Origin: Marsupella aquatica
Taxonomy: Eukaryota > Plantae > Marchantiophyta
Reading direction: 5' to 3'
DNA: 64,000 nt
Assembly: GCA_973895155.1 (NCBI GenBank)
Contig: OZ316893.1
Location: 17,825,836-17,889,835, forward strand
Shown here piece after piece: positions 5,116 through 54,961 of this stretch; within the stretch, counting starts at the first letter, position 1; each line of letters begins with the position of its first letter. The notes beneath the pieces were generated by a model. The model was given only the letters and a program-made list of their open reading frames with translations, was not told where the DNA came from and did no database searches. Position numbers and translations under genes: made by a program.

Positions 5116-5117
5116 AT

Positions 5118-21980: not shown

Positions 21981-23981
21981 TATTCTATAGTATAATGGAA
22001 TGTAATTGGTTTGTGAGGTAAAGTTTAAGTAGACTATGTGGTCTTTAGGCTCTTTTGAGGTGAAGTGTAAACGTAAGTAGACTATGTAAACTAAGGTAAG
22101 TGGTGTATGGGTCCGTAAAGCTATTCGGCCAAGTTAGGTTGTTGTAAAGCTAGTCGTAGTTGATGGGGGATGGGCGTAGTCGGAAGGAGTCGATCCTCTT
22201 GCTCGTTGCCCTCCCTTGCTTTTGCTCTGGTTGACTCGCTGTCTCCGGTGCTCCGTGTCTCTGTCTGTGGAGAAGAAAGATCGGCAGTGAGGCTCGTCCT
22301 TCGTTTGTGAGGAAAAAGAGGGGAAATGTTAAGGGCTATGGATTGAGGCAGCGACGCATGGGCTGCATTATCGGAATTCAAGTTGAGGAGTAGCATTCTT
22401 GATGGTAAGATCTAGCCTATAGCCCTGTATATTCCTTTGTTGAATCATCTGTGTTTGTGCGTCTCCTTTATTGCCTTTGGTCTGTTTTAGTGAATGTAAA
22501 TATGGTGTCCTAATTTTCTGTGTTGCGATCTGTTCCAATGTGCTGCTGGGTCTGGTTTCCAACTAGCTTCGTGAGAAGCGCCAGTGCAGTCCTTTGGATG
22601 CAATCTATAGAGTATGTCTTCATAGTTCTGCTGCCGTTCATCTTTTGCCCGATTGAGTTGATTGTAAGATTGCTGTCGATTCCAAGATTAGCTTTGTAGT
22701 CCGGTTGCGTTTGCTTCTAGTTATTCCTCTGTGCACTTGGTCTTCCATGCCAAGATTGAATCTATTTTCCGACAAGCTCTGTAATCCCTTCAACAGTTGA
22801 GTGGTGTGAGGGCGTGCAAAGACAACGAGAGCTTTGGAAAGTTGTTGCGACAATGCAGAGCCGGTGACAACATTTTGTGAGTGTTGCAAGGTGGGTTTTC
22901 TTCGTTTGCTCTTCTATTCTTGGCTATCAGTCGATTATTCACCCCATCTCGTAGTGCATTTTCTTTTGTCTTTGTCTTTGGAATCCCTGTTGGGACACAG
23001 TCGTAGTAAGCGGAAGAGGTGATCAGGTCCCAGGTTTATCTTTTCCTGAGGTTTGTGTAAGAGCCGGGATCTGTATTTTGGGACAAAGTAGTGTATGGGA
23101 GCTGCAGGGCATCTTTTTAGGGTATGAGATTTTGGTCATGGTACGTAGTGGAATAAGATGGATTTGCGAACTAGGAGCTTGGATTTACAGAGCTAGGCCT
23201 TTGAAAACAGAGGTATTCTATTGTGCAAGCAAACAGGAGTTTTGCTAGCGAGGACAGCAGGCTAGCGAGGCAAGTTTGCGCGTAATCTGAGGGTAGTTAA
23301 GGCGCATTCCCAAGTAAGATTGTCAATATATACTGTGAAACAGTTAAGGAAAACGAAAATGCAGATACTTAAATATTCACAAACTCAAAAATCGAGATCT
23401 TCACTACACTGAACTGAATGAAAAGGCATCATCACTGTCAACAAAACCAGGTCAAAAAACCTTTCACAATCCATCTTTAATAAAACTTTGGTATGACAAA
23501 TATCTTCTAGAATGAGATTGCATCTGAAATTGACCATGAGTCATTGAGAATCCTCTGATTCCAAATCATCTGAGGAATTACTAGGATCGCTACTGGACTC
23601 CCTATCAGTCTCCTCAGCTGAACCGTCAACATACTATGCTACAGTCCCAGCCTCATCATCTATGAACTGAGGGCAGTAAAGGGCTTTCCGAACACCCCTC
23701 ACTGACCGCAGACCTTTCCCCTCCCAAGTCAAAACGACGGGCGCTTCATCAACCTCCTTTGCAGTCTTTTCAGCATAGCATGGAAGCGCAAATCCCTTGT
23801 CAGGGGTCACAAGAAAATGATCCTCGTTTTCTTTCCGAAGACGGCATCTCTCCTCCGAAAACCAATCCGAACGCCTATCACTGAAGAAATCACCAGAATC
23901 GGATCAATACTAAACATCCAAAAATTCTACAAACAAAAGAAAAACACCAAATAGGGAGTTCTACATCAAAGGCCAAGTGCT

Positions 23982-26900
23982 TTACTCCAGGTCGAATTCA
24001 TCCTTCTCGTCTGAAGGTCCTCCCTGATCATCTCCTGGGATGGTGAACTCATCATCAGACCCTTCATCTTTGGGATCATCGTTCTTCGGGTCTGCGGCCC
24101 CTTTCAACTTCTGGGCATGTCTATCCAACACATTTGCCAAAGTTCTTTGTGCACACAAATGAAGAATGTCTCGATCTTCAACACCCACAACAAATCTCCC
24201 AGCGTATTCCCCAGCGGCAAAAGCACTTCCATCTCCAACAGTCCAGTCAATGACAATGTCCTTTGGCAAAGTAAGGATCTCCATTACGGCTTGCATGAAC
24301 CCAACTGACAATCTATTGGAACCTGCGAAAGCCGCCCTGGGACTGGGATCAGTTTTTGGGTAGCAAACACTCAACATCGATTTATGGCGGGCATCCTCCG
24401 AGGAAGTCATTGGAACATATCCTATATGTTTTGGGACTTTTGCCGAGAATTCCACCTTGCAGAAGACATCCATAATGAGAGTAACCACCTGAATTGAAAA
24501 CGATAATACGTAAGAAATGGGCACTTTTGGTTAGCGAGCTCGCTAGCAAAAATTGCACAAAAATATGGAGGATAACTTACCTCGATGTCCATATCTGCCT
24601 GATACAAAGGAGATGAAAGCAAAACCGAATACTGCCGGACATGTTTAAATTTGTTCTTCTGTTCGACTGCAGAAAAAATTTGCCTCATATGGTTATAGTC
24701 GGAGCTGTGAAGAACTGCGACATAACCATCATCGGCAAGCATCGGACGCATGACTCCAAAGAAATAATATGGTAATTTCTCACTCCAAACATTCCACTTC
24801 GGGACCTCCCGGTCTGTGACGCTTGTTCGATGACCCGTGGGAAGGAATATGAAACCCAAGTGAGCACCAATTCCAGCATAATTTTTTCCGTTGATCATCA
24901 CGGCGTTTGGGTGTTCGCTCGATTTGCTCATTCCAGACAACCACTGATCCGCATCGCCCATCCAGGGAGGTCTTACTTTCCTCTGGCTAATTGAGTTTGC
25001 AGTTTCCGTGAGATTGCTCTTCGCCAAGAAATGCCTCTCACCGTCCTTCTTAAGACCACACATTCGTGCTACTCCTTGCGCGACGCATGCTTCCTCCTCA
25101 TCCGAGTCGGAGAGAATTTGGACATTGCGCTTCCTCTTTAAACGCTTGATTGAACCCAGGTCCACAGCAGATTTTGTTGTGACCTCAACATCAGGAGACT
25201 TGGGTTCTTCTCCATCATCCGCCCCACTCTTCAAACTGCCAGAGGCTGCAGCCTTTCTCTTCTCTGAAAAACATGTTAATGTCAGACAGGTGACTAAGAC
25301 AAAATTACTCCGAATGAGGTATGAAAAAAAGAGGAGAAAAAGACTTACTTTGCTTCCCAGACAAGACTGATCCATCTTTGGACGTGTCCTTCACCGGCAC
25401 TTTCCGAGGTCTCCTCGATCTACTCCGGTCCACAATGGCAGCTACACCAAGAACAACTTTCTCCATTGCATCACATCCGCCAGCCTCGGCTTCTGCAGGA
25501 GCTAATTTGGACTCTGTAATGTACGACTCTGGTATCAAGCCTCGATTTATCATATGAAATGCTGCCTTCTCTGCTGTGTCAAATGTCACTGCCCATTTGT
25601 CTGATTCTAAATACCATGGACAGTGAAGGACTTCCCACTCACTCATCTTCCTTGGAGCCTCCACTCCCTCACATGGGTACATCGAGTACTCTCCATATTT
25701 AACAGAGGTTGGATCCTCTTTCACTCCTGCTATCCAAGGCGAGAAGCAAAGCAGGATAGGACCACCAATATGTTTTGTCAGCAACTTCTCTATCCACAAA
25801 AAAATGATACGTATATCTCTTCGCCCTCCTCCGAAAAAGTGAGATGTCAATCTTCTCACCCGACTTTGGTGGCCAAATCTGTTTGAAAAAACGAGATTTC
25901 ACTCTCGTTTGGAAATCTTCAAAGTCCTCCTCTATGTCAAGGATCAGCGATGGCTTTGTCTTCTCAGACGAAGTAAGGATCCTTGCATCTGGAACAGTTG
26001 GGATCAACTCTGAAATAATCTCAGACATGAGCGAAGAACAAATTGACTCAACCTGCTCCCAAACAGCCCATCGGTGAAGCCAAAGTTTTGTTTCGCTGTC
26101 CGAGAATTGACCAGGGTGGAAGTACTTCTTGCGAAGCTCAGGTCTGCATTGTGCCTCGAGGAGTACACATCTGAGCTGGGGAGTCAACGATGAGACACCC
26201 GTAAATAGCCTCGCACGATCGAGACCACATGACACATTACCCCTTCCTTTATCGTCTGTTCGTTGGGCCTCCTTCCTCTCATGTTCGCAGTAGTTGTGCA
26301 TCTCAACACACTTCTGGAAAAAGTCACCAAACTCAGGATTCAGGAGAGGTCCAATCTTTGGCACCTTCACATTCCAATCTGCCAGTTGCTCCTTCATCAT
26401 GTCTTTGACTGCCATGTCTTGCGCAGCTTTTGAAAGAGGTTCTCCTTGCGCTTCTTTCAACTGAAACTTCTTCTTCAAATCTTCCGTCTGCGCTGCAATA
26501 TTAGCAGCAGACAGAATGTACGTGCAGGCATCGAGTGTCATGTTCTTCGAATACCAAGCCGGTTTCCTGATATTTGCCATCTTCTGCTGGAAAAGTTTGT
26601 AGTTGTCTACATCGATGATATCTTTGTATACAGAAAGGTCATTACTGAGAACCTTGTGGACTCTCTCTACTTCAAGGACCCAAGAATTCTCAACGTGACA
26701 TTGAGTCAACCTGAGCAAAAGAAACAGGTCAGCGAGATCGCTAACAAGAGGAAATGAAAGAATTTTATATACAATTCACAGCTTGAAGGAAAAGAAACAA
26801 ACCTATTCAGCGCATGCATTGCCGACTCAATCTGCATGAATGAGTTCTTGTCACCCTTGAAAATTCGACAAACAACTCGAGGATGATATTTGACATCATG

Positions 26901-27506
26901 GGGATTCTCGTCCGCAAGCTGCATCCATGAGTACAGACGATGATTTCCATCGAAAACACAGAACATTTTGTCTTTCAAAATTTTGAAAGCTTCGTGAGAA
27001 TCACATTCCCTCTCGAATTCTTCATTCTGAAGAATCCACATGTCATCCCACGACTCCCGAATCACATCCTCGCACATCTGGACAAGGCCATCTTCGCCGG
27101 TCATTTGGACGTAAAATCGAGGCGCATCTTCGATGTATCCCTGCGTCTGGAATTCATTCTTGAGTGTCTCGATCGTAGTCGAGTTAGTTTGTAAGGACCG
27201 AACGATCTGCATGTTTCGCATTCTGCAAAGGGGAATCCTCGGAGGAGCGAGCGGGAATCCAAATTCGTCATTTCCAAAAGGGAAAAGATGGCGATTGATG
27301 ACAACAAAATAGGGTTCTGAAGCTCCAGGTTGAAACGTAGGATTCACAACATCTACTTGGTTCACCATCTTGGGCCTCCTCGGTGTTTTCAATCCCGCAT
27401 GGAGTGCCTTCTTGTTCACTGTAGACCTGGTCTCCCTTCGGCTTGACTCGACTGACTTGAACGATCCTATTGATGACAAGCTCTCGGGTGAAGACAATGG
27501 CTCCAT
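23982..27506 (-). pseudogene. ParB/Srx-domain and amino-(N4C/N6A)-methyltransferase-fold fusion gene (copy 1, one frameshift)
   Basis: GT-AG introns at 26802-26711, 25348-25264 and 24580-24489 join the ORFs in frame. ParB-like region RIPLCRM...VRSL...GY...FCVFDGNHRLYSW. MTase motif-IV region HLGFIFLPTG...VPKWN...MLADDGYVAVLH and motif-I region DIVIDWTVGDGSAFAAGEYAGRFVVGVE. There is a 1-bp frameshift near 25750 and a possible extra 3' exon at ~23543-23880. Confidence 0.78.
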
Positions 27507-27892
27507 CAAGGGGTCCGTGAAGTGATAAGGGTATCAACAGGTCAAGGTCGAGGGCGACACGCTTTGCGAACATAAAAACACCCGAGAATCGATCTTCCAA
27601 TCAAAGACAGAATCATACCCTCGTCTGTTGCTTTCACCTGAATGTTGCGCCCAGTCGTGAAAAGAGATACAAATATTCTGTACGACTTTTCTCGCAATCA
27701 TTTTTCAGACAACGTCAGGTATACATGTACTTCCGGAAATACGAACCACCGAACTCACGACTGAAAGAAAAGTATCTAATGACAATGAGACAGGTGTCCA
27801 GTACTGTACCGTACCGTTGACATGTAGGTACCCGTTGACCAATTCCAACGGATATAAATGGTCACAATGGTCTCTTATGAGGAAATGTTTTT

Positions 27893-28005
27893 GCTAGCGA
27901 CATCGCTAGCCAAAAAATGACCACTAAATACATTAACTCCTGAAGGGTGTTTTGTAAGGATTTGAACAATTTTACTTGGTTCATTGAGCTAGCGAGATCG
28001 CTAGC
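27893..28005. promoter_or_regulatory. Two perfect GCTAGCGA-NN-TCGCTAGC palindromes in the divergent promoter region
   Basis: GCTAGCGAcaTCGCTAGC at 27893-27910 and GCTAGCGAgaTCGCTAGC at 27988-28005. Function is inferred. Confidence 0.7.
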
Positions 28006-28181
28006 TTTATCATTCCGCAAATAGAGTCATATAAGACAAAATAACGGTCAGATAACGGGAATAAGAGGCATTTATTAAATAAATACGTTGAGTCCAACAC
28101 CTACACAAGCACATTTCCTCATATGTATTTGGAGAAAGAAGAGAGCGAAGTATCTCACATTGTGGATTGCTGTAGACTGTA

Positions 28182-31100
28182 ATGTCCAAAACTTCCAGCA
28201 TGTCTTCATTGGGATCAAAGGTTGTGATCGAGAGAAAGACGACGGGTGATGTTGTTGTTCTGGATGTTCCGGAGAATACTATTATCTCTGTCAAGGAGTC
28301 TTTTCTCTCATCGAGGTTTGGGCTTTTGAATGATGATTTCATCTGGAAGTTGTTCGTTCTTTACTCTCGGGATGGATCCAGAAGTCACGAGGTGTCGGAT
28401 AATGGTTCAGGAATATTGCCAGAAAGAGCTTGGGACCTAAAGGGTGGTTCAGATGTAGAGCTAGTCTCATGTAAGGATGACATTGCACATATCAATGTTT
28501 CCGATCCAGAATCCCCTACTCGACCGTCACCTGCAGTACCAGAAATTATTGACATCTCCCCTGAGAGTGTGGGTAGGGATGTCTCTTCTGTGTCGACAAA
28601 GTCTTCTGAGAAATCCGTTTTTGAAGCAGTGAGTCAAAACGAGTTTCAATCTGAGCCAGTTCTTTATCGAGTTAGTGCATATGATGCCTTTCTCAATATT
28701 ACTGGGTCAAGCGAGTTGGCAAATTTCCGTAGGGGAAACGATTGGAAGGAGATTCAAGTGCAGACTTTGCCCACTTCATACAACGGAAACTGCGTTTTTG
28801 AGCTTCCTCCGGTGGAAGGTCAATTTCGTCGAGGATATGGTCTTCAGGACATGGATAGGGATAATGACGGCTATCCATGGACGAGACTTCTCACAACTTC
28901 AGCTAATCTCAAACCTCGCAATCACTGGTCTGTGTCAAAAGTCAGATGTGCCGGTGTACTTGAATGCCAAAATCTGGTCTGTAGAAAGTTGAAGCACACC
29001 GGTTCAAAAAATGACTCTTCCTTCCGAGGAAAGGGACAATTTACTGAGCCGTTTCATCTTGGTGAGCTTGTGGAGGAAGGAGGGTTGGTGTGCGGATTCT
29101 GTGAGGAGAGGCCTCTCTGCATCCGTGAATGTCCGGCTAAGCTTTTGTACGTCTATCCTAAGCCGTCTCTTGAGTCAAATGTTGCGAAACATATGTCTCG
29201 ATTGGCTGTTCACATGGGTTTCCATGACCACGTTGTTTGGAAGGGGAAATCTCGATTGGCAAAAAAGCAGGCGGAGGAGATAGTTTCTGGTGTTCATAAA
29301 GCGAATCCTGTGTGTACGCCAGGGCGTGTTCTTAACAAGTCTATAGGAAACCTGGTTTCTCTTTTGCATCCAGAGTCTTCTTCAGAACTATCAAAAGAAG
29401 AAGAGAGAGAGATTTGGGAATCGATGAAGGTTGTGTCCACTGTTGAGAAATTCCAGGCCATATTCCGGAGCGTGAAAATGTATAACCCAAAAAAGGGTGA
29501 GTTGGATTCTCTTCGTGAGATGCAAGCACGGAATAATTTTCCTTACGTTCAGAGGTACCTTTTCCCTGGGCAGGGGAGCAAGACCGATAGGGCTCATGTC
29601 TTCAAAATGAGTACAAATGGCCCAGGTTCTGGTGTCGATATTCTCAGGCAGATGAAGAGTGGAGGTGAGCTGGAAGGAGCATGGGTCAGTTCTGATGTAA
29701 TGCGGAGAATAAGCACTGGGTGGCTGACTTTCAGCGCCCATGTGTACGACCATAATTACAGGTCCCTTTGTATCATCTTCACTTGTGAGCTCCGTGCGGA
29801 GGACTCCTTATCTCTTGAAACCGCATGGAGATATATGATTGAAGTTGCCTCTGATCATGATGTGCATGACCCACTCATTGGAGGATTTATTGCCGATAAT
29901 GCCGAGGCTGGATGGATCGCCATTCGAAATGTTTTTTTTGGAGGTGTCCGTCACCCACAGAAGGAGCACAGTGACGCCTTTCACTTTGCTCAATCTCTTC
30001 GTCGTCACACATTGGAGGGTATTCGGGAAGATCGCCATCGAGAGCACTATAAACTGTGGGAAAGGCTGAGAACAGCACCAACATATGTTCAGGCCTACCG
30101 TGTTGCTGACGAAATCCATCGTTGGTGGAAGGAAGGAAACTGCTATGCTGGGAAATTGAAGTCTCTCCAAGGATGGTTATCTTGGTGGGTCGTGAGGTGG
30201 AGGCAGTGGGGGAACTTCATCCGCGTTGTAAGTGTCCAATTTCATTTCTCTTTGACGTCATTGTTTTTGCTAGCGACCTCGCTAGCATATCAGGTCTGAC
30301 TGGGGACTACTTTTTGCAGACGCAAACCGCAATGGAGTCAGCCTTGATGCCAAATTGTACTGGAGCGGAATCAGTCCATGCATCCATGAGATCCTGCCAA
30401 ATGAAGAAACTAGTGGGATTGATTGAAGCATGTGAGGTGGACCAGAATCGTGTTGCGGGGCAAATTGCTGCTTTTACTGCCTACAGTGAAGGTGTTCATA
30501 GAGGCCAGGGGCCGACCATTTTTGAATTAGCATATAGGAACGCCGATGCTATGGGATCCATGGATGCTTACGAAAAGGCAGCAAATCTTTTGCTTGAGTC
30601 TTCAGCTAAGTATGAATTCTATAGAACAGTTCCATTACATGGCGATCTCCGAACAACATCCACGAAGAGGAAAGGGAAAGCTTCAGCTGTAATCCACGAG
30701 AATGACTCCCACAGACATGACAAGGTGTCACGCACAACAGCTTCTCCTTCAGGACTAAAAAGGCGTAATCTCTATCCTGAATTTCGCTTCGTCAATGTTT
30801 CGGAGACTTCTACGGACCCAGAAGTAGCAAATAATACAACTTCGGCAACACCTGTTGGAGGTTGTTCTACTGGAGTTATGCATATTTCAGATGATGATGG
30901 TGATGATGCAAGTCGTAATGTCAATGATACCGTGAAGATGGGGACTCAACCTCAGTGTGATGTCGGGGATGACCATCGGGATGCCCCCCAAAGGATCCCT
31001 TCCATCCGAGAGGTTGATGTTCCTTATGGGACCTGGCATCTCAGGCGGAGCGGTAGAGGTGCTAGACCTGTTTGCAACGGGTCGGTTGACCGAAGCGTTT

Positions 31101-31894
31101 TTGGAAGAGATGAATGTAGAAATCTCATCAAGGAGACTGGATGTAAGTCCGCGCAAGGGGGAATTGTTGGAGTCGCCATTCACGGGTTGCGATTATCGTC
31201 TCCACATCGCCAGTTGTTGTACTTCTGTCCTAATAATAAGTGTCACAAGAGCCGAGGACGCAGAACTCTAGCTCAACTACCCCCCCCACCCGAGTCGCTC
31301 AAGGTTCAGCGTGGGACTTGCCTCTCCCATCCCGAGATAGAGTTTCTGCTGGGATTAGGATTCCAGATCAGTGGACTCTCCTATGTGGATGCAAATCAAG
31401 TTGGAGAGTTCCCGTCCCCCAATCGGGTCAACCTACGAATTGATGTTAACTCATTCCCCGAACAAATTGATCTAACTAATGTGGACCGTCGGTTGAAAAC
31501 TCGAAATGGTAAGGGTGCAAGACAGCGTTTCAGCAATACTCCAGAGTTGCTCAAGCGCATCATTTCCGCTACACAAGAATACATGAGAGTTGTCGGAAAT
31601 GAGAAGGTAACTACCGGAAATGGATGGGGTTGGAGATACTTGATCGCCACTCACGAGACTGATTGACAAGTTCCGCACACATATTGGGTGCAAATCTGTT
31701 GTTTCCCTTCGTGTTCTTGTGAAGACTTTTATAAGAGGCATACACGAGGGAAACCATACATGTCTTGTAAACATCTGCTGTGGGTGTATTTAAACAAGTT
31801 TTCACTCAACCTAGAGAAGGACGACCTTGTCAAACAGCCAATTCTGACTGTTGGGGAAGTGAGGAGTTTAATTCCGTTACAGATAGGGGACTAG
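28182..31894 (+). pseudogene. Mutator-like (MULE) DDE transposase with GCM-like zinc finger and C-terminal SWIM finger (copy 1, one premature stop)
   Basis: Exons 28182-30227 and 30320-31894 give ~1206 aa. Motifs: CAGVLECQNLVC...CGFC...CPA...GFHDH; D in WVSSDVM; D in FIADNAEA; SDAFH at the CxxH position; E in PNCTGAESVHAS; SWIM CSCEDF...CKHLLWV. In-frame TGA at 31664-31666. Confidence 0.85.
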
Positions 31895-32517
31895 TCGTTT
31901 ATTGGAGATGCTAATTATAGGGTGGTGGGATGGATTACTCGAGTTTGTGGTTTCACAAATATCAATTTGTTTTCACCGAGTGAATCATAATGTTAGCGAG
32001 GTCCACAATGGTAACTTTTATGGTGTTTGAGTTTTCTGTTTATGGTTAGCGATCTCTCTAGTCTTAGGAAGTCTACTGCATCCTGACAGAAACATCCTAC
32101 TTTCATACGTGTTAATCTATCGACAAGTTTCTATAGAGTTCACGGTTTGATCATTAAAATGACGCCAGTTTTTGGCTAGCGAGATCGCTAGTCTGATCAA
32201 CGGAATTTAGGACAGGATGTGACAGGATGTTTAGGGTTTAGGGAGGGAAGTTTCCCCTGAAGTTGTTATGGTAATACTCCATCGAATTGATTATCAAAGA
32301 TGAACACAGTTCTATACTAGCGATATCGCTAGTCTGGGAAAGGTCCAACAGTGACTTCAAAATAAAAGTACTATGTGCGAAATGGCATTCCAGAGAAACA
32401 CATAGAAATGAAAGGACCACCCAAACTTTACTTCTCATACATATTGAAAGTATATGAGGACATGCAGTTCGCTTGTAACTACAAAAATTTCAGTAAATCC
32501 ACAACCTGACTCTACCC

Positions 32518-32946
32518 TCAGGGGCTGGACGCCTTCCATGCATCGGAGTCAGTGTCTGACTCTGAATCGTAATCCGAAGAGGCGAGGCGTTCCTCGGTCC
32601 AGTAGTCATAGATCTCCCTGTCAATCCAATACTGATCCTCTTCTGCGAGCCTCTTCCTCTTCGATACAACCTCGCGCTGTGTGGTATCCACCTTTGGCTT
32701 CGGTGGAGACTTTGCTGCTGGAATTAACTTTGGAGGAGTAGGTGTTCTCCTCAATGATGATGACGATCCAACAGATTGACCGAGTTCGGTTGGGACACTG
32801 CTGCCTAAGGAGACCTTCATAGTCTCTGCATCGGGTTTCTGCTTCGGAGGAGAGTCATCTTCAAGCGGGCCATCTGTCGCCGGGTTGTAACGACGGATCT
32901 CAAGTCTCCATTTCCCCTGAGGAGGATTGCTTGGAACACCAGACAT
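32518..32946 (-). CDS. Small low-complexity ORF with an acidic tail, convergent with the transposase; possible third gene of the module
   Basis: 142-aa ATG ORF ending QYWIDREIYDYWTEERL...SDYDSESDTDSD, preceded by an AG acceptor-like site. No recognisable family. Confidence 0.35.
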   Translation of the reverse strand: MSGVPSNPPQGKWRLEIRRYNPATDGPLEDDSPPKQKPDAETMKVSLGSSVPTELGQSVGSSSSLRRTPTPPKLIPAAKSPPKPKVDTTQREVVSKRKRLAEEDQYWIDREIYDYWTEERLASSDYDSESDTDSDAWKASSP

Positions 32947-35430
32947 TTCTCTGCACTTACGAAACCCAAACAGTGATTAAAGAGAACAGGATTCAACAAA
33001 TGGAAACATTATTCACGGTGGAATACGATGAATATCATGCCTTGTCGGAGAGTTCTTCCCTTAAAACAGCTCAAAGAATAGACCCGTGCTTACCTGAACT
33101 AGATCTGGAGAGTGTTGAGAACTTGGAACACTGATAGCAGTTCCGAATGAAAGAGATCAAGTCGGACGCGGTGGAAGTGATCGGGAGAATGATTTGGAAG
33201 ACTGGTGGTTTTTGGGCTAGCGGATTTGTTTAAGTGGACGGTTCGACGCCTTGGATTCGAGTCTGGTTCGAACAGTAAGTGTCCCGTTCACTTGCAAGTG
33301 ACTTAATTAGTGTCCAAACGGCCTTAATCCTCCTTTCCTCGGTAGTAATGACACATTGATTCTTTTCACGCGGGAATCGCGAAGTACTTTTTTGTTATTA
33401 CTCTTCCTCGGGTGGGAATTTTCACATGTGGAAGCCTGTACGTGGAGACCGTACCTCGTATGAGTGGCTCAATGTGTTGGCATCATTAGACTAGTGATTT
33501 CGCTGGCCTGAAGATATGTCATTTTGATCTATTGCGTTCACGGGACTAGAATCGTCCATGGGTAGCCGTCTATATTTATTGATCGAACAGGGTCTCCATG
33601 CTAGCGAGGAATATTCCAGACCTTTTTTGGGCCCCAATACAAGGTGACATCTTGCCCGTGCGAGCAAAAATTCTACTATTTGCTCGCACGTTACAATTAC
33701 CCTTGAAAACATATTTTGCTTCTTCATCATTTCTTCCCCTCGTGTCACTATGCACCAAATAATCCACGGAGAAATTGTTGTATTCTATAAGGAAGTGAGG
33801 ATTGGTGACAATATTGTGATACTTTAGGACGTGTTTGTGAACATTTGCTGGTGTAGCGATCACCCGGGAATATGTGTTTTATAGTTGGAGTTTCCGATTC
33901 TCCAACTAAGTTGCTGACCCTTCCTCGGCCTGCTTCATCTTGCAAAAGATTTGCTTCTAGCTCACTAATAAGGCGGTAATCGTAGTAAGCGTGACTATCA
34001 AATAATTTCAGGGCTCTGAAGAGTCACCCGTGGTAGAGAAGAATGATCGTGAGAAAGTGTTTCAAGCAAGATCCTTTGGTTTTGCCTTGGGTGATAGCGA
34101 GCACATGTGTGTGTAGATAAATTCGGACGCTCACGGGTGAGAAACCATTGTGTTAACTATAGTATATTCACTTCATTCATGGGGAATTATACTACCACAT
34201 CGATTAGCATGTGCGGCGGTTATGTTCGTAGTCCATCAACGCAATATGATCTGCTCTGCAACGTCTGAATAACGACAAGCGCACAAGATGCCCCTTCATC
34301 CGCAGGGACTATACCGTCGCAATAGAGAGTGTTATTCGGTCTGAAGCTTCCTATCTGTCCATCACCAAATTAAGTATTCAGCTTGCTGCCGCTGTTTGCT
34401 TTTGAATTGATTAACGTGCATGTCCATTAAAGCGAGGACTTCATGCTCTACGTATAACGTCTGGAAGAGCTTTGTGAATGTGAAGTCCCATCAGGATGCG
34501 AACAAGGGATCCGGACAATATCTCTAACTTGTAGTGGATGTAGAATCCTTATATAAGTAAGCGCTTGGTTCATTGTTGTGTTCTTGTTCTAACATGCCCC
34601 TAAACTGACAATGCAACCCTTTTAGACTTGGGCTTGTTAGTGCATTTTTTTTTACTGAACCAGAGTATCATTCAAGCTCGGCCGCGCCCTAGAAGAGTTG
34701 TCGATCGTAAGAGCTGCAATGGCCTCCGATACGAGTTCGCGTTCTGAGAGTTGAGAGCATATCCACATGCATCAGACTACAATTTGACTCGGATCAAGGA
34801 CACGGGCGCAGATTGAGTCACTGTCCAGCCCCAGTACAATGGAGTCGAGGTCTTTATGTGACAAGACCTGCTCGTCCATAACAACTTTCAGTTTAGAGTA
34901 GTTAGGTCTCAAGCTCGCTGATCTTTGGCAGCTGGAGTGAAGCGATCCAGGTTGAATTGATAGTTGGTTTTGCAGTCCTCATTTATGCTAGCAGATTCTA
35001 GATCGACCGAGCCAACGATTGAAGGTATCCCATAATCGTGGCGTGGATCTTGAGTTTCATCGTTTCTCTTGGTATATTGGAAAGCCTAGGCATATCCAAC
35101 ACCTCTTTGTATTGGAAGTATCGATCTTGGCTATACTCCTTCCTCTTCGGTGAGTTGATAAATTATCTTCTCGGCTAGAATTTGCCTACAAAAGTTGTTC
35201 AATACACCCGGTCATCGTTTCTTTGCATGTTCAACAATTCGAATGACCTGGTCTGATCAAGTCTTGCTTCGGTGAACATCTTACATGCTTGACCGAGGTC
35301 ACATATATCCTTATTTTATTTCAATTGTTAATTTCCCAAAAGTTGTAAGTTTCAAGGACTTGGAGCATGACAGCTTTTGATTTAGGCTTGCTATAGTGTG
35401 TTAGTAACAATTGTCAAATGATTTGGACAG

Positions 35431-36562: not shown

Positions 36563-36647
36563 AAATTGATTACTCAAGGTAGATTGGAATCTCGTGCATA
36601 TGGAATTGTGGGCCCCGTTATCCGGCAGATGTCTGGCGTGGCAAAAA

Positions 36648-45830: not shown

Positions 45831-45979
45831 TTATTGTCTTAGCCTATGGTTCCATATTGTCTGGTTAAGTAACAATGTGACAATAGTCATCGTAAGTTGT
45901 TTTTCTAATAGTAACATGAGGTAAGTTTGTCATGTCGTGTAGTTGTAGTGCCTGAAACTTCTATCCTTCGGAACTATCC

Positions 45980-48611
45980 CATTCGAAGATGTCTTATAGA
46001 AGACATCAAGAACCAGATTGAAAACCTGGAGGGAAGACAGAACAAAGATTTAGAAAATCAACCCAAAACTCAAAGAACTTGTTCCAGAAGGTGATTGCTA
46101 ACGAGGGTCGCTATCAAAATAAAAGTGAACTTACGTTAAAGTCAATTTTCTCTTTCCATAAAGGAGCCGGAAGCAGAATTGAGTATGACTGCGCATGCTT
46201 GAAAAAACCATGAGCTTGAGCGCACTATATATGGCTGAGGTGTGATTAAAATCATCACTATGAAGAACAACAAGGAATCCATTATCAGCAAGATACTGTT
46301 TGGAGATATTGAAAAAATGTGTTGGGAGGGATTTGTCCCAAACGTTCCACTCTGGAAACGTTTTGTCAGTAATGAGGGGACAGAGTCTAGTAGGAAGATA
46401 GACAAAACCTCAATCAAAACCTGTTCCCAGAAGGGATTTTTTGTCCAAAACTATCGGAGATTCCCTAAGGCCTCTCGACAAGAGACTCTTCATCCAAATG
46501 TCACACTCTCTAACCATGACGGTTTCTTCCTTTGATTGACAATTGACTTGGCTGAGTCAAGAAAACTTGACTTGAGAAAAATGTCTATTATCCTCTGCAA
46601 TAAACTCTATTCCTTTCCTCTCCAAACCAGAGTTTAATCTTGAATCGAATTCGGCCTCCTCATCCAAGTCAACAAAATTACGTTTCTTCTTTGTTTTCTT
46701 GGAGCTCCCCAAATCTGCCACCTTCTTTGACTTTCTTTTCTTACTAGTTTCCTCAAGAGATGCGTCCTCATCAGCATCTAGATTGGCTTCCTCTCCCGGT
46801 TGATTGTGTGAACTCAACAAGCACCTCTTTTCTGAAAAAGCACCGGGAGGTCAGAATGTAAACTTCAAGAATACATGATTCAAATATAACTTATTGATAG
46901 CGAGGTTTGCTAGCAATACTTACTTGTTCTGAGAGACTGTTGAGAAGCAAAAACCTTTTGAGACTCTGCCTTTTCAAGAACCCCAACTTTCACTCTTGAC
47001 TTTTGAGTGCAGTCGACACTCTCACCTTGCCTCAAACATACTTCCTCCATCAAGGCACAAGCCCTTTCTTCCTTCTCCACTGGACCAAATTTGATCTCAG
47101 ATAGAATATACAAGTTGGGCTCCTCACCCTTCACAATCTTGGTGTACGTCGATCTTTCCGTTTGGTCAAAAGCAGTTGACCACTAATCAATATCGAGGTA
47201 CCAGGGACAATTAAAAACTTCCCAAGCAATAAGGTCTCTTTTGGGGTGAGAAGCATCCACAGGATACATTGAAAAGTAAAGATATGTAACATTTTAGTCT
47301 GCATCTAGCCCAACGCTTGCCCACCCAGTAAAACAAAGGGGGTAACACCAAAAATATGAATCACTACTAATTTCTCAATCCACAAAGAAACGATAAACAT
47401 ATCGCTTTGCCCTTTGACAAATTACATCAACATCAATTTGTCACCCGACTTGGTTATCCAAATTGCTTGAAAAAACTTAGATCTCACACAAAATGCATAA
47501 TCCTTGAAATCATCAAGGATATGCTCCTTTCAAAGATTCAAGATCTTTTTAAGGTGTTGACTCTAAACAATCCTGAGGAGCACTTAATCCAATCTCATCC
47601 AAATAGGCTATCAGCAAATGGTTAGAAATGGATTCAACCAATGACCACATGGACCATGTGTGGCACCACTGCTTGGTCTCATTCTCGGAGAATCCCGCTG
47701 GATGAAACCATTGCTTCCTCAATTCTGGCTTACACTATGCCTCAATCAATTGACATCGAAGAAGTGGATCTAGAGTTGAGACAATAGTGTACATTAAAGC
47801 CCGATCCAATCCACATCCCAATGTTTGACGTCCTTCTCTCTTCTCCCTTTTGCAATACTCATACAACTTTGAGCATTTGGCAAGAAAACTTATGTATTCT
47901 GGATTCAAAACAGCTGCTAGTTTATTGCTGCGGATTGACCATTCTTTTAGCTGCGAGGCAAACATCCTGTTTCCCCTTCAAAATGCGACAAATCACTCAA
48001 GGATGATACTTTTTGTCATTGGGGAACTGCTTAGCAACTATCATCCATAAATATAGACGATGGTTCCCATCAGAAACCGAAAACATCTTGTCCTTAAGGC
48101 ACGCAAATTCTGGATTTTTGTCACATTCTGCTAAACCCAAACATCGTCCCAAGTTGCTAGAATATCTTCAGTGACCACAATCTCAGCGCCTTCTGCATCA
48201 CAAATGGGAACATAAAACTTTGCCAACTTGTCAACGTACCCATTCGTCTTGAACTTGGAGACTAGATTATCGATAGCTCCTGATTGCACCTGGAGCGACG
48301 TCACCAAGTCCATGTTCATAAGTCGACAAAGGGGAATCCTAGGAGGATCTTGCATGTCACCTCTTTCGTTCAAACCCAAACAAAAGAGAGTGACAAGCAA
48401 GCACCTTGGAGAATGCGTCTGGAATTTTGCTGCCTCCCATCAGCACACCATGTGTGTCTTGAGACATGACTGGTGTTCTCAGAGTTTTTAGACCTGTGAA
48501 AAGAATTTGTCTCTCTGCTGTCGATCGAGTCACTCATCTGCTTGAGTTTGTAGTCTATATAGAGGAGGCGGAAAAAGAAGTTTGGGAGTGCAGTGAAGAA
48601 GAATGATCCAT
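45980..48611 (-). pseudogene. ParB-MTase-fold fusion gene, degenerate copy 2
   Basis: PPRIPLCRLMNMDLV...KFKTNGYV...KDKMFSVSDGNHRLY, YFWCYPLCF...SMYP and GFVYLPT...FPEWNVW...YLADNGFLVVLHS. Many stops and deletions; the motif-I exon was not found. Confidence 0.8.
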
Positions 48612-49432
48612 TGGTTCACCAATGGGCTTGATACGGAGTGACCGTCGTTGGGTACGGATGACACCCCACGTACAAAGACACCGTACCAACATCCGCTCCT
48701 CTACTAACCAAGACACGTGAAGTCCAATGGAACGTTTGTAAACAGGATATAATACCGTCATTTGTTTCTAAACGGGATATAATACTATCATCTATAGCGA
48801 TAGCAACTGGAATTTGAGATGTGTCATACGATAATAGGAACAATATATACATTAATTAGTGGTACCAACGGATTCATTAACAACAATGTTGAGATAATTC
48901 CAGATGGTTTAACATAACCTAACCTAAATGCATGAAAGTTTAACATCAAATAAGGAAACTTTTAGAACACTTAAGGTGAACAGAAAACAATTAAAGTTAC
49001 CATTTAACGGTAACTTTTGGTAGCAACCCTCAATATCAAAATTATTCCATTTTAAAATCAATGAAACTAAACCCAAAACATTGCAAAATTTGTCAATAAA
49101 CCTCTAGAATTGGATATTGGAAACTATAATTTTTGATAGCAAAGGTCGCTATCAAAACTCGTTACCACTTTTTTGGAATTTAGAGTAGATTTTAGTGATA
49201 TTAGGTTCAATACAAATATTTTTAAGCATAGTTAATGATAGCGATGATCGCTAGCAAAAGTTATCGTTCTTTATTACCGTTGTATATCTGTTGGCAGATA
49301 CTATCCGTTACTGACCTTGTAAAAAGACTATAGGGGAATCCGATGGCTATGTACATTTGGTCGGTCGGTCTTTGGGTTGATTGGTCGGTCTTAGGGTTAT
49401 TTGGTCGGCCGTCTCTAAAGGTCCGTTAGTTC

Positions 49433-49487
49433 ATTGGTCATGTCGTACTTTGGTCATGTCGTACTTTGGTCATGTCGTACTTTGGTC
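49433..49487 (+). repeat. 16-bp tandem repeat
   Basis: ttggtcatgtcgtact three times within a tggtc-rich tract. Confidence 0.85.
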
Positions 49488-50461
49488 AGTCAGTTCTTTG
49501 GTTGGTCATCCCTGGAGGGTAGGTCCATATATTGAAGAGTTAATTTTGTTAGGTGTCTATTCCAGACACTTGCTGATTCACACTGTCTCGGATTTTGACA
49601 TTCCTTATTGTTGTCACTCTCATCTTTGGTCATGGACGGTTTGCAGAACATGAAGCCCAATAATGGTAAACTTCCCATTGAAGAGGAAGAGGAGACCACG
49701 GAGCAGGAGTCTGAGACGTATGTTTCTATCACTTTGGACATCCAAAATAGGAATAGCCTCCACCAAGTGAGGGAATGAGTCCAGGGGAGTGGAACATTCC
49801 ATGGCTCAGGGATGAGCCCACTCTTCCATTCGAAGATCGATTCTTCTTCCATGTTCCTTCCGATCCAGCCACAGTTTGGCCGCGTCGTCTAGAACTTTGA
49901 AAGCACAAGGTGTTGGGATCTCTTGATTTTCAGGACTCTAAATTTGCAAGCGAGAGCAGCCAAAGGCCTGTCTACAGAGCTCCAAGTAGAGCATTTAGGC
50001 ATAGGAGGGACCATGGTTTCACACAAGACATATACCGTCGAGGAGCTGGTGTCCCGGATGAAGAAATGTCTTCTTCTTTGAATAAGTTTTGTCCAGATCC
50101 CGACCAGAAGGAGTGAGATTCATATAAGGATCGATACCTGCAGATTCTATGTCTTTAGTCGGGCATAAATTAGGTTAAGATACTAAGACAATTTTGGTAG
50201 CAATCTTCGCTAACATCTAGTGTATGTTTTTTCACGGAATATATAAAGAGTTTTATGCTTGTCTTCGTGTATAAATTGGACATCCTAATGGATACAAAAC
50301 AAACGACAAAACATTTAATGCCACAATTATTACCGTTTCAAAATCCGAGAGTTGTTCGAGCTTTCAACGGACTACAATGAACAATTTAGGAATGAGAAAC
50401 ACCCCTTTCATTCTATGACATTGGCCAAGATTTCCATTTGGACTCTATCTACGTTTTAGAA

Positions 50462-53400
50462 ATGGCATCCCAAATCAAAATTGTGCGGGAGTCTACTGGA
50501 GATGTGATCTTTCTTCCTGTTTTTTCATTGAGTGGAGAGCAAATAGTGAGTGAAACTTATCTCGGTCAACGACTTGGCTGGGAGGGGTCATTTATCCAAG
50601 ATGTACTTGGGAGGAGGGAGGATTCCATTGTGAGTCCTGCCCGTATTGAGCCTTCGAGTCTCCATAGCATCCAACATTGGAACTTGAAAATTGGATATGT
50701 GTACTCTATGGTTACTAAAAATGATCCATCCCCCGAGAGAGTAGAAGCAGACATTGATGTTTGTGAAATCAAAATAGAGTCTCCAGATAAAGTTTCCCCT
50801 ATATATCGAGTGAGTGCTTGTGACATGATATTGAGGGTTAAAGGCTCGAGCAAGATATCTTGCTTTGTCCGTAAGTTCTTGGAGTCGGGCGAGGATGTCA
50901 AACATGTTCAATGTCTTCCCAAGGATTACAATGGGGACTCGATATTTGAGCTTCCTCCAGTAGATTCATCCACTAAAAGAGGATATGAGTTAAGATACAT
51001 GGATTGAGAGAATGAATGCTTTCATTGGACCTGAATTATTCTAACTTCTGCAAATGTTTTTCCAAAAGATTTGTATCAGTTCGTAAAGGTTTGATGCTCT
51101 GGGTCAATTGAATGTCAGAATGGGAAGTGTGCATTCTTAGATAAGGGCAAAGGAAGGAATCAAGTGTCCTAGGCGGGAAGGGCAAAAGGAGACGCATGCA
51201 CAAGACTGGGGAAGCAGTTTCTCCCGGAGGAATAGTATGTTTTCATTGTGACAAACCACCTGTATGTGTGGAGACGTGTCCCGCACTAATGTTTTACATG
51301 TACCCACATTCGTCGATGGATAAAGAAAATGTGAGATTCATGTCAAGGCTTGCAATGCATGTCGGATACCATGTCCACCCACCGAATAGTATTGTTTCGA
51401 GGGAGGCCATGATTGCTGTAGAGTCGGTCATCCGAGACCATCATTTAGTGAACCCCTGGCCACATCAGCTCAACTAAAAATTGATGCAACGGAGTCATTG
51501 ATGGCACACTTGGCCTCGGAGAGTGCCGCTGGGATTTCTGCCTAGGACATTCAGGATATTTGGGGCTCATTGAGTGCTCTTGTGTCCAAAGAGAAGTTCC
51601 GAGCCATCTTGCGGAATGTGAAAATGGAGAATCCCTTGAAAAGTGAGTTTGACTCAATTTGGGACATGCAAAGGAACATTCATTTTCCTTACATCCACAG
51701 ATTTCTATTCCCTGGTCAAGGCTCAATTACAACTCGAGCTCATGTTTTCAAGATGAGCGTAAAAGGTCCGGGTTTTGGATTGGATATTCTTCAAAAAATG
51801 AAAAAAGGGGGTTCTCTTGAAGGATCATGGGTTAGTTTTGATGTTATGCACCGGATTACTACTGGCTGGCTCACATTTAGTGCGCACGTTTATGATCATA
51901 ACATCCGTGCCCTTTGTGTTGAGCATAGACGACAATCGCAACGGCAAGCCCATGGACCATTCAATGCACAAGAATCGACACACAGAGATACGTGGTTCAC
52001 CTCCACATGAGGCTACGTCCATGGGAACACACACAAGCTTTATTGCACTCTAGGCCGACCGACCATACCAAGCATCCACAACGCAAGCTCTCTGTATCTC
52101 TCAACTAGCTCCGTAACAATGAGCCTGAGTTCCCCCTCTCCAAGCAAACACCGCTTGGTTATAGAGTGTGCACAGCATGACTAACCTAACCAAGTCTGCG
52201 ACTAAGGTTAGCCTTAACTCATAGTACAATTGTAACTCTAGACCTAAGAGTAAATCCTAACACTCTACACAATATTTACTTGTGAGTTGAAGTCTGAATG
52301 TTGTGAATCATTGTCTACCGCTCGGAGGTTGATGGTAAGTGTCGCATCCAAAAATGGTTTGCACGACATTACCATCCATGGTTTCATGGCATACAATGCC
52401 ACCGTTGGGTGGAATGCGGTTTGGAATGTATTCTGGCAAGGTCTGTCTAATCCAAAAAAAGAGAGGTCTGATGCTTTTCATTTTTTCCGATCACTCTGGA
52501 GGCATACCTGTGAAGGTATTTTGGAGAAAAATCATGATGAGCATTATGCTTTGTGGGACTGTTTGAGGAACGCCTCCACGTACGTCAAAGCTTACAGAAT
52601 TTCTTCAAAGATCAAGAAGTGGTGGCAGTCTGGAAACTATATTCGAGGGAAACTTTGCTATCTACAAGGATGGATTTCCTAGTGGGTCGTTTGATGGAGA
52701 CAGTGGGGGAACTATATCCGGCTGGTATGGTCTTAATCACAAATCTATATTTTATGGCCTGCTCATCAAAATACTGCAAGCGATCTTTGCTAACATTGGT
52801 TGAATCCATTACTTACGTTGATTTATACTGATGTGTTTTGTTTCAGTCGGCTGACGCCCTGGAGTCTGCAAGAATGCCAAATTGCACTAGTTTGGAAGCT
52901 GTCCATGCGAGCTTCCCAACCCAAAAACAAAGTGACTCTAGTGGAGGCTTGCAAAGTTGACTCCAATCGTGCTGCCTTCCAAGTTGCCTGCTACATCGGA
53001 TTTGAGTCTGGTGTGAGTAGAGGTACATGACCAACAATTTTTGAGCTTGCATTTTGCCATGCAAATATGGTTGGTTTTGCTTCCGCTCATGAGAAAGCAA
53101 CCAATTATTTGATGGAAGCTAACGGGAAGTTTGATCTTCTACGGACCGGGCCATTAAATGGTGATTTGCAAACAAAATCTACAAAGAGGAAGGGAATTGC
53201 AAGTGATAAAATCTTTGATCAGGACTCTCATTGACATGACACGGTTCTTCTTACTTCCCCAGCTAGGATTGCATCAAGGAGACAACATCTAAACTCTACT
53301 GAGTTTAGTCCTAATTATACGAGAGGGCCGCCAACATCAATGAATCGGCCCGAGGGAGCTTCGATACCAGATGTTGTAAATTTATCTGAGAGTGAATTGT

Positions 53401-54413: not shown

Positions 54414-54961
54414 GGAAATGTTGTATTTCATGAAAATGTGATTTTCATGCCTTGCCAAGAATTATATTCGGCTTATTATGAAAGTTTTTTTGACTTCCTT
54501 GAATCTATTTTATTGTCCATGTATGGTTAGAGGCTTTACACCATGCCAGGAAACATGAGATTTTTTTACTGATACGAGCAAAACCTTTCCTCATATCAGG
54601 AAAGTTTTACTGTTATCAGCAATGTTTTTACTCACATCAGGAAAAACATTCAAGGAATTGTCATCCTCCATACTGTTGTGAGCAACACCAATAAAAAAAC
54701 ATTCAAAATTGTCATAAAAGTGGAGTGCCAAGTCTCTCCAACCACTTAAAAGAGTGTTCAAAACCAATTTTTATAAAAAAATGGGGCATTGCCCTAACCT
54801 CAAAAGGCAAATTTTGAGCAAAATATGTAAACAATACTAGCGCCAAGCGCTAGCAATGATCCAACCCTATTTTACAAAACCAAACATTGTCTAATACACT
54901 CATTCTCAATAAGCTTCTGTATATGATAATGCCGTTGGAAACCGACAAAGTACTGACCAAT

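What the first reader, a model, noticed from the sequence alone, without database searches (positions are those of the whole stretch)
23244..33610. parS-like 18-bp palindrome repeated through the introns and intergenic DNA of the module
Seen: GCTAGCGA-NN-TCGCTAGC, or close variants, at 24530, 26728, 27893, 27988, 30269, 32045, 32175 and 32316, with half-sites at 23244, 23261, 31993 and 33600. Every full site is non-coding: three are in introns, two in the divergent promoter and three downstream of the transposase. I noticed none in the retrotransposons. The arms are conserved while the 2-nt centre varies (gc, ga, ca, cc, tc, ta), as expected for a dimeric protein's binding site. Known: ParB loads on clustered 16-bp palindromic parS sites and spreads along DNA. 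Inferred: these are loading sites for the element's ParB-MTase protein, or for the transposase GCM finger, letting it coat its own element.
Basis: partly seen in the sequence, partly recalled or inferred. Interest (0 to 1): 0.9.

Follow-up and report, generated by a model that had tools for sequence, protein, structure and literature searches.

The report
Plant transposon with family-specific ParB palindromes
A land-plant jumping gene carries nine copies of one 18-letter palindrome in its introns and spacers, and its relatives carry their own versions in the same intron; these are likely docking sites for a protein the element encodes, predicted to fold like the bacterial DNA clamp ParB, an idea raised for algal transposons but untested.

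Summary
GCTAGCGA-NN-TCGCTAGC occurs 6 times with up to 2 mismatches (0 in 100 shuffles) and 9 times with up to 3, all in non-coding DNA of a 73%-coding element (A). A is a slightly decayed Mutator/IS256-type transposon of a land plant: a GCM-DDE-SWIM transposase gene set divergently from a ~1,200-codon ParB-like/methyltransferase-like gene. Two diverged relatives in the window (B, C) and two metagenome relatives carry their own palindromes in the same transposase intron. B and C use a 3-nt spacer, A and L001 a 2-nt spacer, and L006 an unrelated word. A distant clade has none. A liverwort homologue of the accessory protein is predicted to match ParB/KorB/Noc over both the nucleotide-binding and DNA-binding domains (Z 8.3-9.5, rmsd 5.6-9.9). 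In A and B the methyltransferase lacks its catalytic aspartate. Best reading: family-specific binding sites for the element's ParB-fold protein; binding, spreading and function are untested. The design is already proposed for red- and brown-algal transposons. New here: land plants, a Mutator-type host, dispersed intronic sites, and co-existing families with different spacers, which gives a built-in specificity test.

The parts
24530..24547 (.). Palindrome, 8-2-8, 1 mismatch, in intron 3 of the ParB-MTase gene; B has a site in the homologous intron (46097)
26728..26745 (.). Palindrome, 3 mismatches, in intron 1 of the ParB-MTase gene; overlaps a branch-point-like CTGAC on the sense strand
27893..27910 (.). 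Perfect palindrome in the divergent promoter region
27988..28005 (.). Perfect palindrome in the divergent promoter region
30269..30286 (.). Perfect palindrome in the transposase intron; B, C, L001 and L006 carry palindromes in the same intron
32045..32062 (.). Palindrome, 3 mismatches, downstream of the transposase
32175..32192 (.). Palindrome, 1 mismatch, downstream of the transposase
32316..32333 (.). Palindrome with the same outer change in both arms
33490..33507 (.).
23244..23268 (+). Two exact half-sites (23244, 23261) beyond the 3' end of the ParB-MTase gene
31992..31999 (+). Half-site, 1 mismatch
33600..33607 (+). Exact half-site
23520..27503 (-). Element A accessory gene, about 1,200 codons: ParB-like domain (exon 27503-26803), helical ParB-DBD-like region (26710-25349, one frameshift), beta-class amino-methyltransferase-like domain (25263-24581, 24488-23986) lacking the motif IV aspartate; last exon boundaries uncertain
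28182..31894 (+). Element A transposase gene: GCM-like zinc domain, IS256/Mutator-like DDE core with DxxH, SWIM-like finger; intron 30228-30319; one in-frame stop at 31664-31666
32518..32976 (-). Small convergent ORF (152 aa, low complexity), no Pfam match, no counterpart in B or C; membership of the element uncertain
45960..48626 (-). Element B: decayed ParB-MTase gene (30-60% identity to A by segment), intron 1 region deleted, 3' end lost next to an LTR-like remnant
50462..54413 (+). Element B: decayed transposase gene (33-58% identity to A by segment) with a copia-type solo LTR at 51917-52261
46097..52794 (.). Element B palindromes, all 8-3-8: 46097 (intron 3), 46896 (intron 2), 49135, 49237, 50196 and weak 49019 (divergent promoter), 52776 (transposase intron)
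54965..56903 (-). Element C: 3' part of a third transposase gene (36-62% identity to A)
54836..56685 (.). Element C palindromes, GCGC type, 8-3-8: 54836 (downstream) and 56529, 56598, 56667 in 69-bp tandem units of the transposase intron

Best explanation
The palindromes are non-coding, family-specific sequence words of a Mutator-type plant transposon, and they likely are the binding sites of the element's own accessory protein, which is predicted to have the ParB/KorB clamp fold and would bind them as a dimer and then spread over the element to mark its own family's DNA. Shown: the sites are real, non-coding and confined to this element family; word and spacer are fixed within a family and differ between families; the accessory gene and transposase gene are linked head to head in two copies. 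Predicted: the ParB nucleotide-binding fold followed by a ParB-type helical DNA-binding region. Inferred: dimeric binding at the sites, nucleotide-dependent (CTP or another NTP) loading and sliding, and a regulatory outcome. The most likely outcome is keeping the element's divergent promoter and body open against host methylation, as VANC does for VANDAL; KorB-like self-repression is the alternative. In A and B the methyltransferase-like domain has lost the catalytic aspartate, so it would act as a binding or shielding module rather than write a mark.
For: (1) 9 of 9 sites in A are non-coding (p about 8e-6) and all have spacer 2; 6 of 6 in B and 3 of 3 in C have spacer 3. (2) Non-circular test: a half-site matrix trained on A only, spacer free from 0 to 6, finds 9 hits in 33701-64000, all within B or C, 8 of 9 with spacer 3, against a mean of 1.36 and a maximum of 5 in 200 simulations. 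(3) Sites are kept in homologous introns of copies whose proteins are 30-60% identical. (4) Of 8 elements whose transposase intron could be read, 5 carry palindromes there: A, B, C, L001 (three GCTAGCGC-N2 sites) and L006 (six ATCTCGGC-N7 sites); L002, L003 and L007 have none. The three states match three supported transposase clades (100/100, 100/96, 99/96). (5) The ParB exon has 221 relatives at E up to 0.001 among 1.84 billion proteins. Named ones come from Riccia sorocarpa and Adiantum, with full-length ParB + helical + MTase fusions of about 1,200 aa. (6) The model of a Riccia homologue (pLDDT 85.6) aligns to KorB over 196 of 201 residues (Z 8.3, rmsd 7.1, top of 48,161 chains) and to ParB and Noc over 179-203 residues (Z 8.5-9.5, rmsd 5.6-9.9). 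Sulfiredoxin and SerK match the first domain only (Z up to 6.4). The VR and DGNHR motifs are 85-99% conserved and intact in A. (7) In red algae ParB-like PAG3 genes sit beside inverted-repeat arrays on Plavaka elements, and an Ectocarpus Sola1 element has a divergent ParB-MTase gene (passages). The ParB gene, not a transposase type, is the common factor.
Against: No binding data. The fold was predicted for a Riccia homologue (36% identical over the ParB domain, about 31% over the helical region), not for the window protein. Foldseek E-values were 0.1 or worse, Z 8-9.5 is near what unrelated helical models reach, and rmsd is high. A profile search of PDB sequences found no ParB. L001 and L006 are too short to show a linked ParB gene, and it is unknown whether the clade without palindromes lacks that gene, so co-occurrence of gene and sites rests on 2 copies (A, B). 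With a strict test (1 mismatch in 8 pairs) the B and C transposase introns score 0 because their sites are decayed. A repeated palindrome family of 8 also exists in the tandem repeats of the Ty3 LTRs, with no ParB gene. A itself has a frameshift and a stop, so it cannot make either intact protein. No sign of methylation protection could be tested; the CpG ratio in A (0.75) lies within the range of the other regions (0.48-0.89).
Confidence: 0.65

Rival explanations
1. The sites are bound by the transposase through its GCM/NAC-like zinc domain, as internal activator or assembly sites.
For: The transposase model matches the GCM domain (Z 6.1, 137 aligned, rmsd 4.6) and a NAC domain (Z 4.5). NAC dimers bind spaced palindromes (recalled). 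The Arabidopsis AtMu1 transposase activates cognate copies sequence-specifically (abstract of 10.64898/2026.08.24.746577). Palindrome type follows the transposase tree, which fits either binder.
Against: 5 of 7 metagenome loci (L002-L005, L007) encode the distant form of this transposase and show no repeated palindrome family in 1.1-3.9 kb each, including the intron in three of them and 1.2 kb downstream in L003. The sites are internal, not terminal. GCM binds a non-palindromic octamer as a monomer (recalled).
Confidence: 0.15
2. The words act in RNA, as intronic hairpins or branch-point elements.
For: A 7-bp stem with a 4-nt loop is possible. Variant arms give branch-point-like CTAAC or CTGAC on the sense strand in A introns 1 and 3 and in the B transposase intron. 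One L001 site is the centre of a perfect 60-bp inverted repeat.
Against: 6 of 9 sites in A are outside introns. Of the 9 imperfect intronic sites, only 2 stay fully paired on the transcribed strand. Lone half-sites recur. No Rfam family matches 23000-57000. A fixed 2- or 3-nt centre per family suits a protein dimer on DNA.
Confidence: 0.07
3. The sites are neutral by-products (tiny insertions, tandem duplication or template switching) or sites of a host transcription factor.
For: In C and L006 the sites lie in tandem units. Template switching can extend palindromes, as in the L001 hairpin. Tandem repeats of the Ty3 LTR also hold a repeated palindrome.
Against: In A the flanks are unrelated beyond a 4-5 nt T run (best pair 11 of 20, equal to background), and 4 of 9 sites show only short AT-rich chance repeats in their flanks, none placed like a target-site duplication. 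The sites persist in homologous introns across diverged families. A host factor would not be expected to change spacer or word between families in one genome.
Confidence: 0.13

Closest known systems
Sola1-1_Ec32 of Ectocarpus (PMC12477816; passages read)
   Same: Accessory gene on the strand opposite the transposase, encoding a ~1,100-aa ParB-like plus N4C/N6A methyltransferase protein, proposed to bind and modify its own element.
   Different: Brown alga and Sola transposase. The word 'palindrom' does not occur in that paper's main text. Here the host is a land plant, the transposase is Mutator/IS256-like, and the methyltransferase motif IV aspartate is lost in A and B.
PAG3 of red-algal Plavaka (EnSpm) elements (Petroll et al., 10.1101/2025.02.11.637652; passages read; supplements not seen)
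   Same: Transposon-borne ParB-like gene (their best hit 7BNR is also among mine) with neighbouring inverted repeats proposed as its binding sites; PAG homologues are also reported in Chondrus Mutator elements.
   Different: PAG3 is fused to a 2OG oxygenase and the methylase is a separate gene (PAG2). Its repeats form tandem arrays beside the gene; in A the sites are single and dispersed through introns, promoter and 3' spacer.
VANC/VANDAL anti-silencing system of Arabidopsis (PMC5735166; passages read)
   Same: Mutator-type plant transposon; family-specific short motif concentrated in introns and intergenic DNA; motif and protein diverge together; motifs multiply in tandem repeats, as in C and L006.
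   Different: The VANC21 motif is a 9-mer arrayed in one orientation, not a spaced palindrome. No VANC-like protein was found here. Loss of methylation is shown for VANC and untested here.
ParB-parS, Noc-NBS and KorB-OB (PMC12704722 and 10.1101/2024.02.16.579611, passages read)
   Same: Predicted ParB fold followed by a helical DNA-binding region; palindromic non-coding sites spread over the element. The OB site quoted in the KorB paper shares TAGCG and a T-rich flank with the half-site here (5 bp, possibly chance).
   Different: Eukaryotic chromatin, no ParA partner, a methyltransferase-like C-terminus in place of the dimerisation domain, an 18-19 bp site with a family-specific spacer. Nucleotide use and sliding are untested.

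Membership tests
ParB-parS (ParABS) system | ParB/Srx nucleotide-binding fold with conserved Box I and Box II motifs | tested here: met
   Fold matches to ParB, KorB and Noc for a Riccia homologue; VR and DGNHR motifs conserved and present in A; weak DGQHR, DndB and ParB profile hits
ParB-parS (ParABS) system | HTH DNA-binding domain following the nucleotide-binding domain | tested here: inconclusive
   Structural alignment runs through the DNA-binding domain of ParB/KorB (model 4-368), but rmsd is 5.6-9.9 and the region has long insertions; no sequence-level match
ParB-parS (ParABS) system | Clustered palindromic site | tested here: met
   9 sites in 10.5 kb; 18 bp, not the 16-bp parS word
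ParB-parS (ParABS) system | ParA ATPase partner and DNA segregation role | tested here: not met
   The element's reading frames are the transposase, the ParB-MTase gene and one short low-complexity ORF; none matches an ATPase family
ParB-parS (ParABS) system | Site-specific binding, CTP-dependent clamp closure and sliding | not testable with these tools
   Needs purified protein
Mutator/IS256-type (MULE) DNA transposon | DDE transposase with D/CxxH motif, WRKY-GCM1-type N-terminal zinc domain and SWIM finger | tested here: met
   Best fold match ISCth4 (Z 8.2, 177 aligned, rmsd 8.7; Foldseek E 1.2e-3), GCM Z 6.1; motifs located; no Pfam hit
Mutator/IS256-type (MULE) DNA transposon | Termini and 8-11 bp target-site duplication | tested here: inconclusive
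   No terminal inverted repeat or clear duplication found between 21900-23600 and 31900-43300; no other genomic copies available
Algal ParB-accessory transposons (PAG3; Sola1-1_Ec32) | ParB-like accessory gene fused to a DNA-modifying domain on a DNA transposon | tested here: met
   ParB-like plus N6_N4_Mtase-like fusion in A, B and Riccia full-length homologues
Algal ParB-accessory transposons (PAG3; Sola1-1_Ec32) | Element-specific inverted repeats next to the accessory gene | tested here: met
Active amino-methyltransferase (beta class, N6_N4_Mtase) | Catalytic motif IV (D/N/S-P-P-Y/F) and SAM-binding motif I | tested here: not met
   Motif IV reads FLPT in A and YLPT in B, against DLPT, DMPS, DVPF or DFPI in 6 of 6 Riccia and Adiantum homologues aligned; motif I is recognisable
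VANC/VANDAL anti-silencing system | Family-specific motif enriched in non-coding parts of the element | tested here: met
VANC/VANDAL anti-silencing system | VANC-family protein | tested here: inconclusive
   No Pfam family matched any of the element's reading frames; the accessory protein is ParB-like; no direct comparison with VANC was run
VANC/VANDAL anti-silencing system | Protein-induced loss of DNA methylation over the element | not testable with these tools
   No methylome or expression data

The most novel reading that the evidence does not exclude
Early-diverging land plants host a family of Mutator-type transposons that captured a prokaryotic ParB clamp fused to a methyltransferase. 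Each subfamily has evolved a private palindrome (word and spacer), loads the clamp from sites planted in its introns and promoter, and lets it slide over chromatin to shield the whole element from host methylation, using a catalytically dead methyltransferase domain as the shield. This would be a nucleotide-switched sliding clamp acting on eukaryotic chromatin and a second, independent origin of VANC-like anti-silencing in plants.
Probability: 0.25. Interest if true: 0.9.

Novelty: new variant of a known kind. Interest (0 to 1): 0.62.

Why it matters
[quoted passage not shown] ParB-like accessory genes in algal transposons were proposed to do the same but not tested. This case extends the design to land plants and supplies candidate sites at base resolution. 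It also offers a natural specificity experiment: three families in one 35-kb stretch with different words and spacers. If the protein is a sliding clamp, it would show how one small site set can govern a whole 10-kb element in chromatin. It could also yield orthogonal, sequence-programmed tools for spreading epigenetic effectors in plants.

Tried and rejected
No whole genome is held for this window, so motif density inside and outside the family, copy number and element ends could not be measured; expression and splicing were not checked against reads. Pfam found nothing for any reading frame of A, B or C except one sub-threshold proline-rich hit. A word-based search for longer relatives of the ParB exon found none, although the full HMMER search later did. 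A search for transposase relatives of 1372-3915 residues found none. Viral contigs hold no relative. A prokaryote-genome scan could not be run with alignment A2. A profile search of PDB sequences with A2 gave no ParB hit. The homodimer prediction for residues 1-460 of the Riccia homologue returned no answer (score 0.00, alignment not used, own fold uncertain) and is not used either way. No Rfam match. Rejected: sites as subterminal repeats of the surrounding CACTA element, because its repeats are a different word near 43 kb and the palindromes also occur in B, C, L001 and L006 outside it. Rejected: a link to the Marchantia 4mC enzyme DN4MT1, whose paper describes a TSPPY enzyme and does not mention ParB (passages). 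Rejected: tiny mobile insertions. Terminal repeats or a target duplication for A were sought and not found. Place and sequence look-ups of earlier scan findings returned nothing, as did three narrower word searches.
Full report
Observation. The 18-bp word GCTAGCGA-NN-TCGCTAGC is present as described. Six matches have up to 2 mismatches, against none in 100 dinucleotide shuffles. Exact half-sites lie at 23244, 23261 and 33600, and a 1-mismatch half-site at 31992. With exons placed from splice signals and homology, 0 of 9 sites fall in coding DNA, which makes up about 73% of 23201-33700 (p about 8e-6). The inner AGCGA of the half-site is nearly invariant over 18 arms, the outer three bases vary, and a 4-5 nt T-rich flank precedes it. 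One weak matrix hit lies in coding DNA at 25777.

Setting. The window is land-plant DNA: a PPR E/E+ fragment, a Ty3 and a copia retrotransposon. No genome is held, and the species was not determined. Element A has two genes set head to head. The plus-strand gene (28182-31894, one intron, one in-frame stop) is a transposase. Its model (pLDDT 77.9) best matches the IS256-family ISCth4 transposase (Z 8.2, 177 aligned, rmsd 8.7) and, in its N-terminal half, the GCM domain (Z 6.1). It has DDE, DxxH and SWIM-like motifs. That layout is the Mutator type (PMC1702500, search listing and start of abstract only). The minus-strand gene (27503 to about 23520, four introns, one frameshift, about 1,200 codons) is the accessory gene. 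A sits inside a 22-kb CACTA element (21169-43278, terminal CACTAGAAGAAACCG, ATG duplication). The ends of A were not found.

The accessory protein. Its first exon has 221 relatives at E up to 0.001 among 1.84 billion representatives. Of 10 looked up, 6 are Riccia sorocarpa proteins, 2 Adiantum nelumboides, 1 Adiantum capillus-veneris or unnamed metagenome entries for the rest (5 clusters Riccia, 3 Adiantum, 2 without organism). P0044 and P0168 are full-length fusions that match the window's exons in order. I folded a 500-residue stretch of a Riccia homologue with 100 sequences (pLDDT 85.6, pTM 0.69). The top eight Foldseek rows were ParB or Noc, though with E of 0.1 or worse. Against 48,161 chains the top match was KorB (Z 8.3, 196 of 201 residues, rmsd 7.1), then PadC (Z 7.5). 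A second look gave ParB and Noc at Z 8.5-9.5 over 179-203 residues, which spans both their nucleotide-binding and DNA-binding domains. These scores are moderate, and the DNA-binding match is the weaker part. The VR and DGNHR motifs are 85-99% conserved and intact in A. The language-model search linked this exon to DUF3723 and ParB_N clusters. The C-terminal exons resemble N6_N4_Mtase. Motif IV reads FLPT in A and YLPT in B, against an aspartate-bearing motif in 6 of 6 Riccia and Adiantum homologues aligned, so this lineage is probably inactive as a methylase.

Family-specific palindromes. Two more relatives lie in the window: B (45.9-54.4 kb, same layout, decayed) and C (3' part of a transposase, 55-57 kb). 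A degenerate scan finds 9 sites in A, all with spacer 2; 6 in B and 3 in C, all with spacer 3; 0 in 21 kb of retrotransposon; and 2 stray 1-nt-spacer matches elsewhere. That motif was drawn partly from these sites, so I also trained a matrix on A alone and left the spacer free. It gave 9 hits outside A, all in B or C, 8 with spacer 3, against 1.36 expected (maximum 5 in 200 simulations). B keeps sites in the introns homologous to those holding A's 24530 and 30269, in the divergent promoter, and in intron 2, where A has none. C uses GCTAGCGC arms, three times within 69-bp tandem units of the transposase intron.

Relatives elsewhere. A metagenome scan gave 7 loci from 327 candidate stretches. 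L001 has three GCTAGCGC-N2-GCGCTAGC sites in the same intron, one at the centre of a perfect 60-bp inverted repeat. L006 has six copies of an unrelated palindrome, ATCTCGGC-N7-GCCGAGAT, there. L002, L003 and L007 have none in that intron; L004 and L005 do not reach it. A motif-free search for repeated palindrome families recovers A (7), B (4), C (4), L001 (3) and L006 (6), and at most 1 in the other five loci. It also finds a family of 8 in the Ty3 LTR tandem repeats. A tree of 17 transposase core segments separates a clade with the CTAGCG word, the L006 clade and the clade without palindromes (C and L006 fill under half of the columns). In 1 of 11 protein tails that read through into the intron, the residues are exactly what the C-type palindrome would encode, against 0 such matches in 5,750 residues of coding body (P0005). 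That is indirect. None of the metagenome contigs is long enough to show a ParB gene.

Mechanism. A symmetric word with a free centre, a fixed spacer per family and placement only where coding does not constrain it is what a dimeric DNA-binding protein encoded by the element would leave. RNA structure fits poorly: 6 of 9 sites in A are outside introns, and only 2 of 9 imperfect intronic sites stay paired on the sense strand. Copying of small units does not explain A, whose flanks are unrelated. Between the two proteins, the ParB-fold one is favoured: its structural relatives are palindrome-binding dimeric clamps, and relatives with the same kind of transposase lack the sites. I put binding by this protein at 0.65, by the transposase at 0.15. 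Loading, sliding and an anti-silencing outcome are inferred from ParB/KorB and VANC and are not shown; together they stand at about 0.25.

Known systems. Petroll et al. describe ParB-like PAG3 genes beside tandem inverted repeats in red-algal Plavaka elements and propose self-binding (passages; supplements not seen, and they may list further hosts). The Ectocarpus paper describes a divergent ParB-MTase gene in Sola1-1_Ec32 and calls such proteins a possible new class (passages). VANC21 binds a family-specific motif in introns and intergenic DNA of VANDAL21 (passages). A 2025 survey of the ParB fold reports ParB-N6N4-MTase fusions enriched in phages and names sulfiredoxin as the common eukaryotic form; 'plant' does not occur in its main text (passages). 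Iyer et al. mention ParB-type HTH-MTase fusions in chlorophytes and chytrids (passages). Four paper searches listed no report of this design in land plants; the library lacks most subscription papers. Earlier AI findings of this scan report the same pairing in fungi, animals and protists (51 findings in at least 15 genomes, 8 shown). They are unchecked leads and served to point me to the two algal papers.

Verdict. The feature is real and most likely a set of binding sites for the element's own ParB-fold protein. It works like parS or OB in layout and like the VANC motifs in distribution, but it is not a ParABS system. It is a new variant of a recently proposed, untested kind: land plant, Mutator-type host, dispersed intronic sites, a probably dead methylase, and neighbouring families with different spacers. 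Interest 0.62.

Noticed in passing
window 21169-43278: A 22-kb CACTA element with terminal CACTAGAAGAAACCG, an ATG target duplication, GTCAC subterminal repeats and a TnpA-like gene at about 38-42.4 kb encloses element A, an LTR remnant and a PPR fragment.
   Followed up: partly
window 36570-37230: PPR gene fragment with E, E+ and a DYW-like tail containing stops, inside the CACTA element.
   Followed up: no
window 21913-21976 and 45760-45825: Related polypurine tract plus TG-starting LTR-like sequence lies beside the 3' side of the ParB-MTase gene in both A and B; in B it cuts off the gene's end. Coincidence or targeted insertion is unresolved.
   Followed up: no
window 5995-20670: Young Ty3 element with LTRs of about 4 kb (99.9% identical over 3,481 bp), each holding a 623-codon ORF and 47- and 64-bp GC-rich tandem repeats that contain their own repeated palindrome.
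   Followed up: no
window 51917-52261: Solo LTR related to the copia element at 86-5560 interrupts the transposase of element B.
   Followed up: partly
L001:1172-1231: Perfect 60-bp inverted repeat centred on one palindrome site, suggesting template switching as a way to symmetrise or extend sites.
   Followed up: no
L003:2900-3400 (minus strand) and 3830-3880: The clade without palindromes has a different convergent ORF behind the transposase and short CTCCGCT direct repeats near the contig end, possibly subterminal repeats.
   Followed up: no
window 24530, 26728, 52776: Variant arms create branch-point-like CTAAC or CTGAC on the sense strand of the introns, so some sites may double as branch points.
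   Followed up: partly
P0138 (Adiantum capillus-veneris): A fern relative of the ParB-like domain is fused to an NIF/FCP1-type phosphatase domain instead of a methyltransferase; this may be a gene-model join.
   Followed up: no
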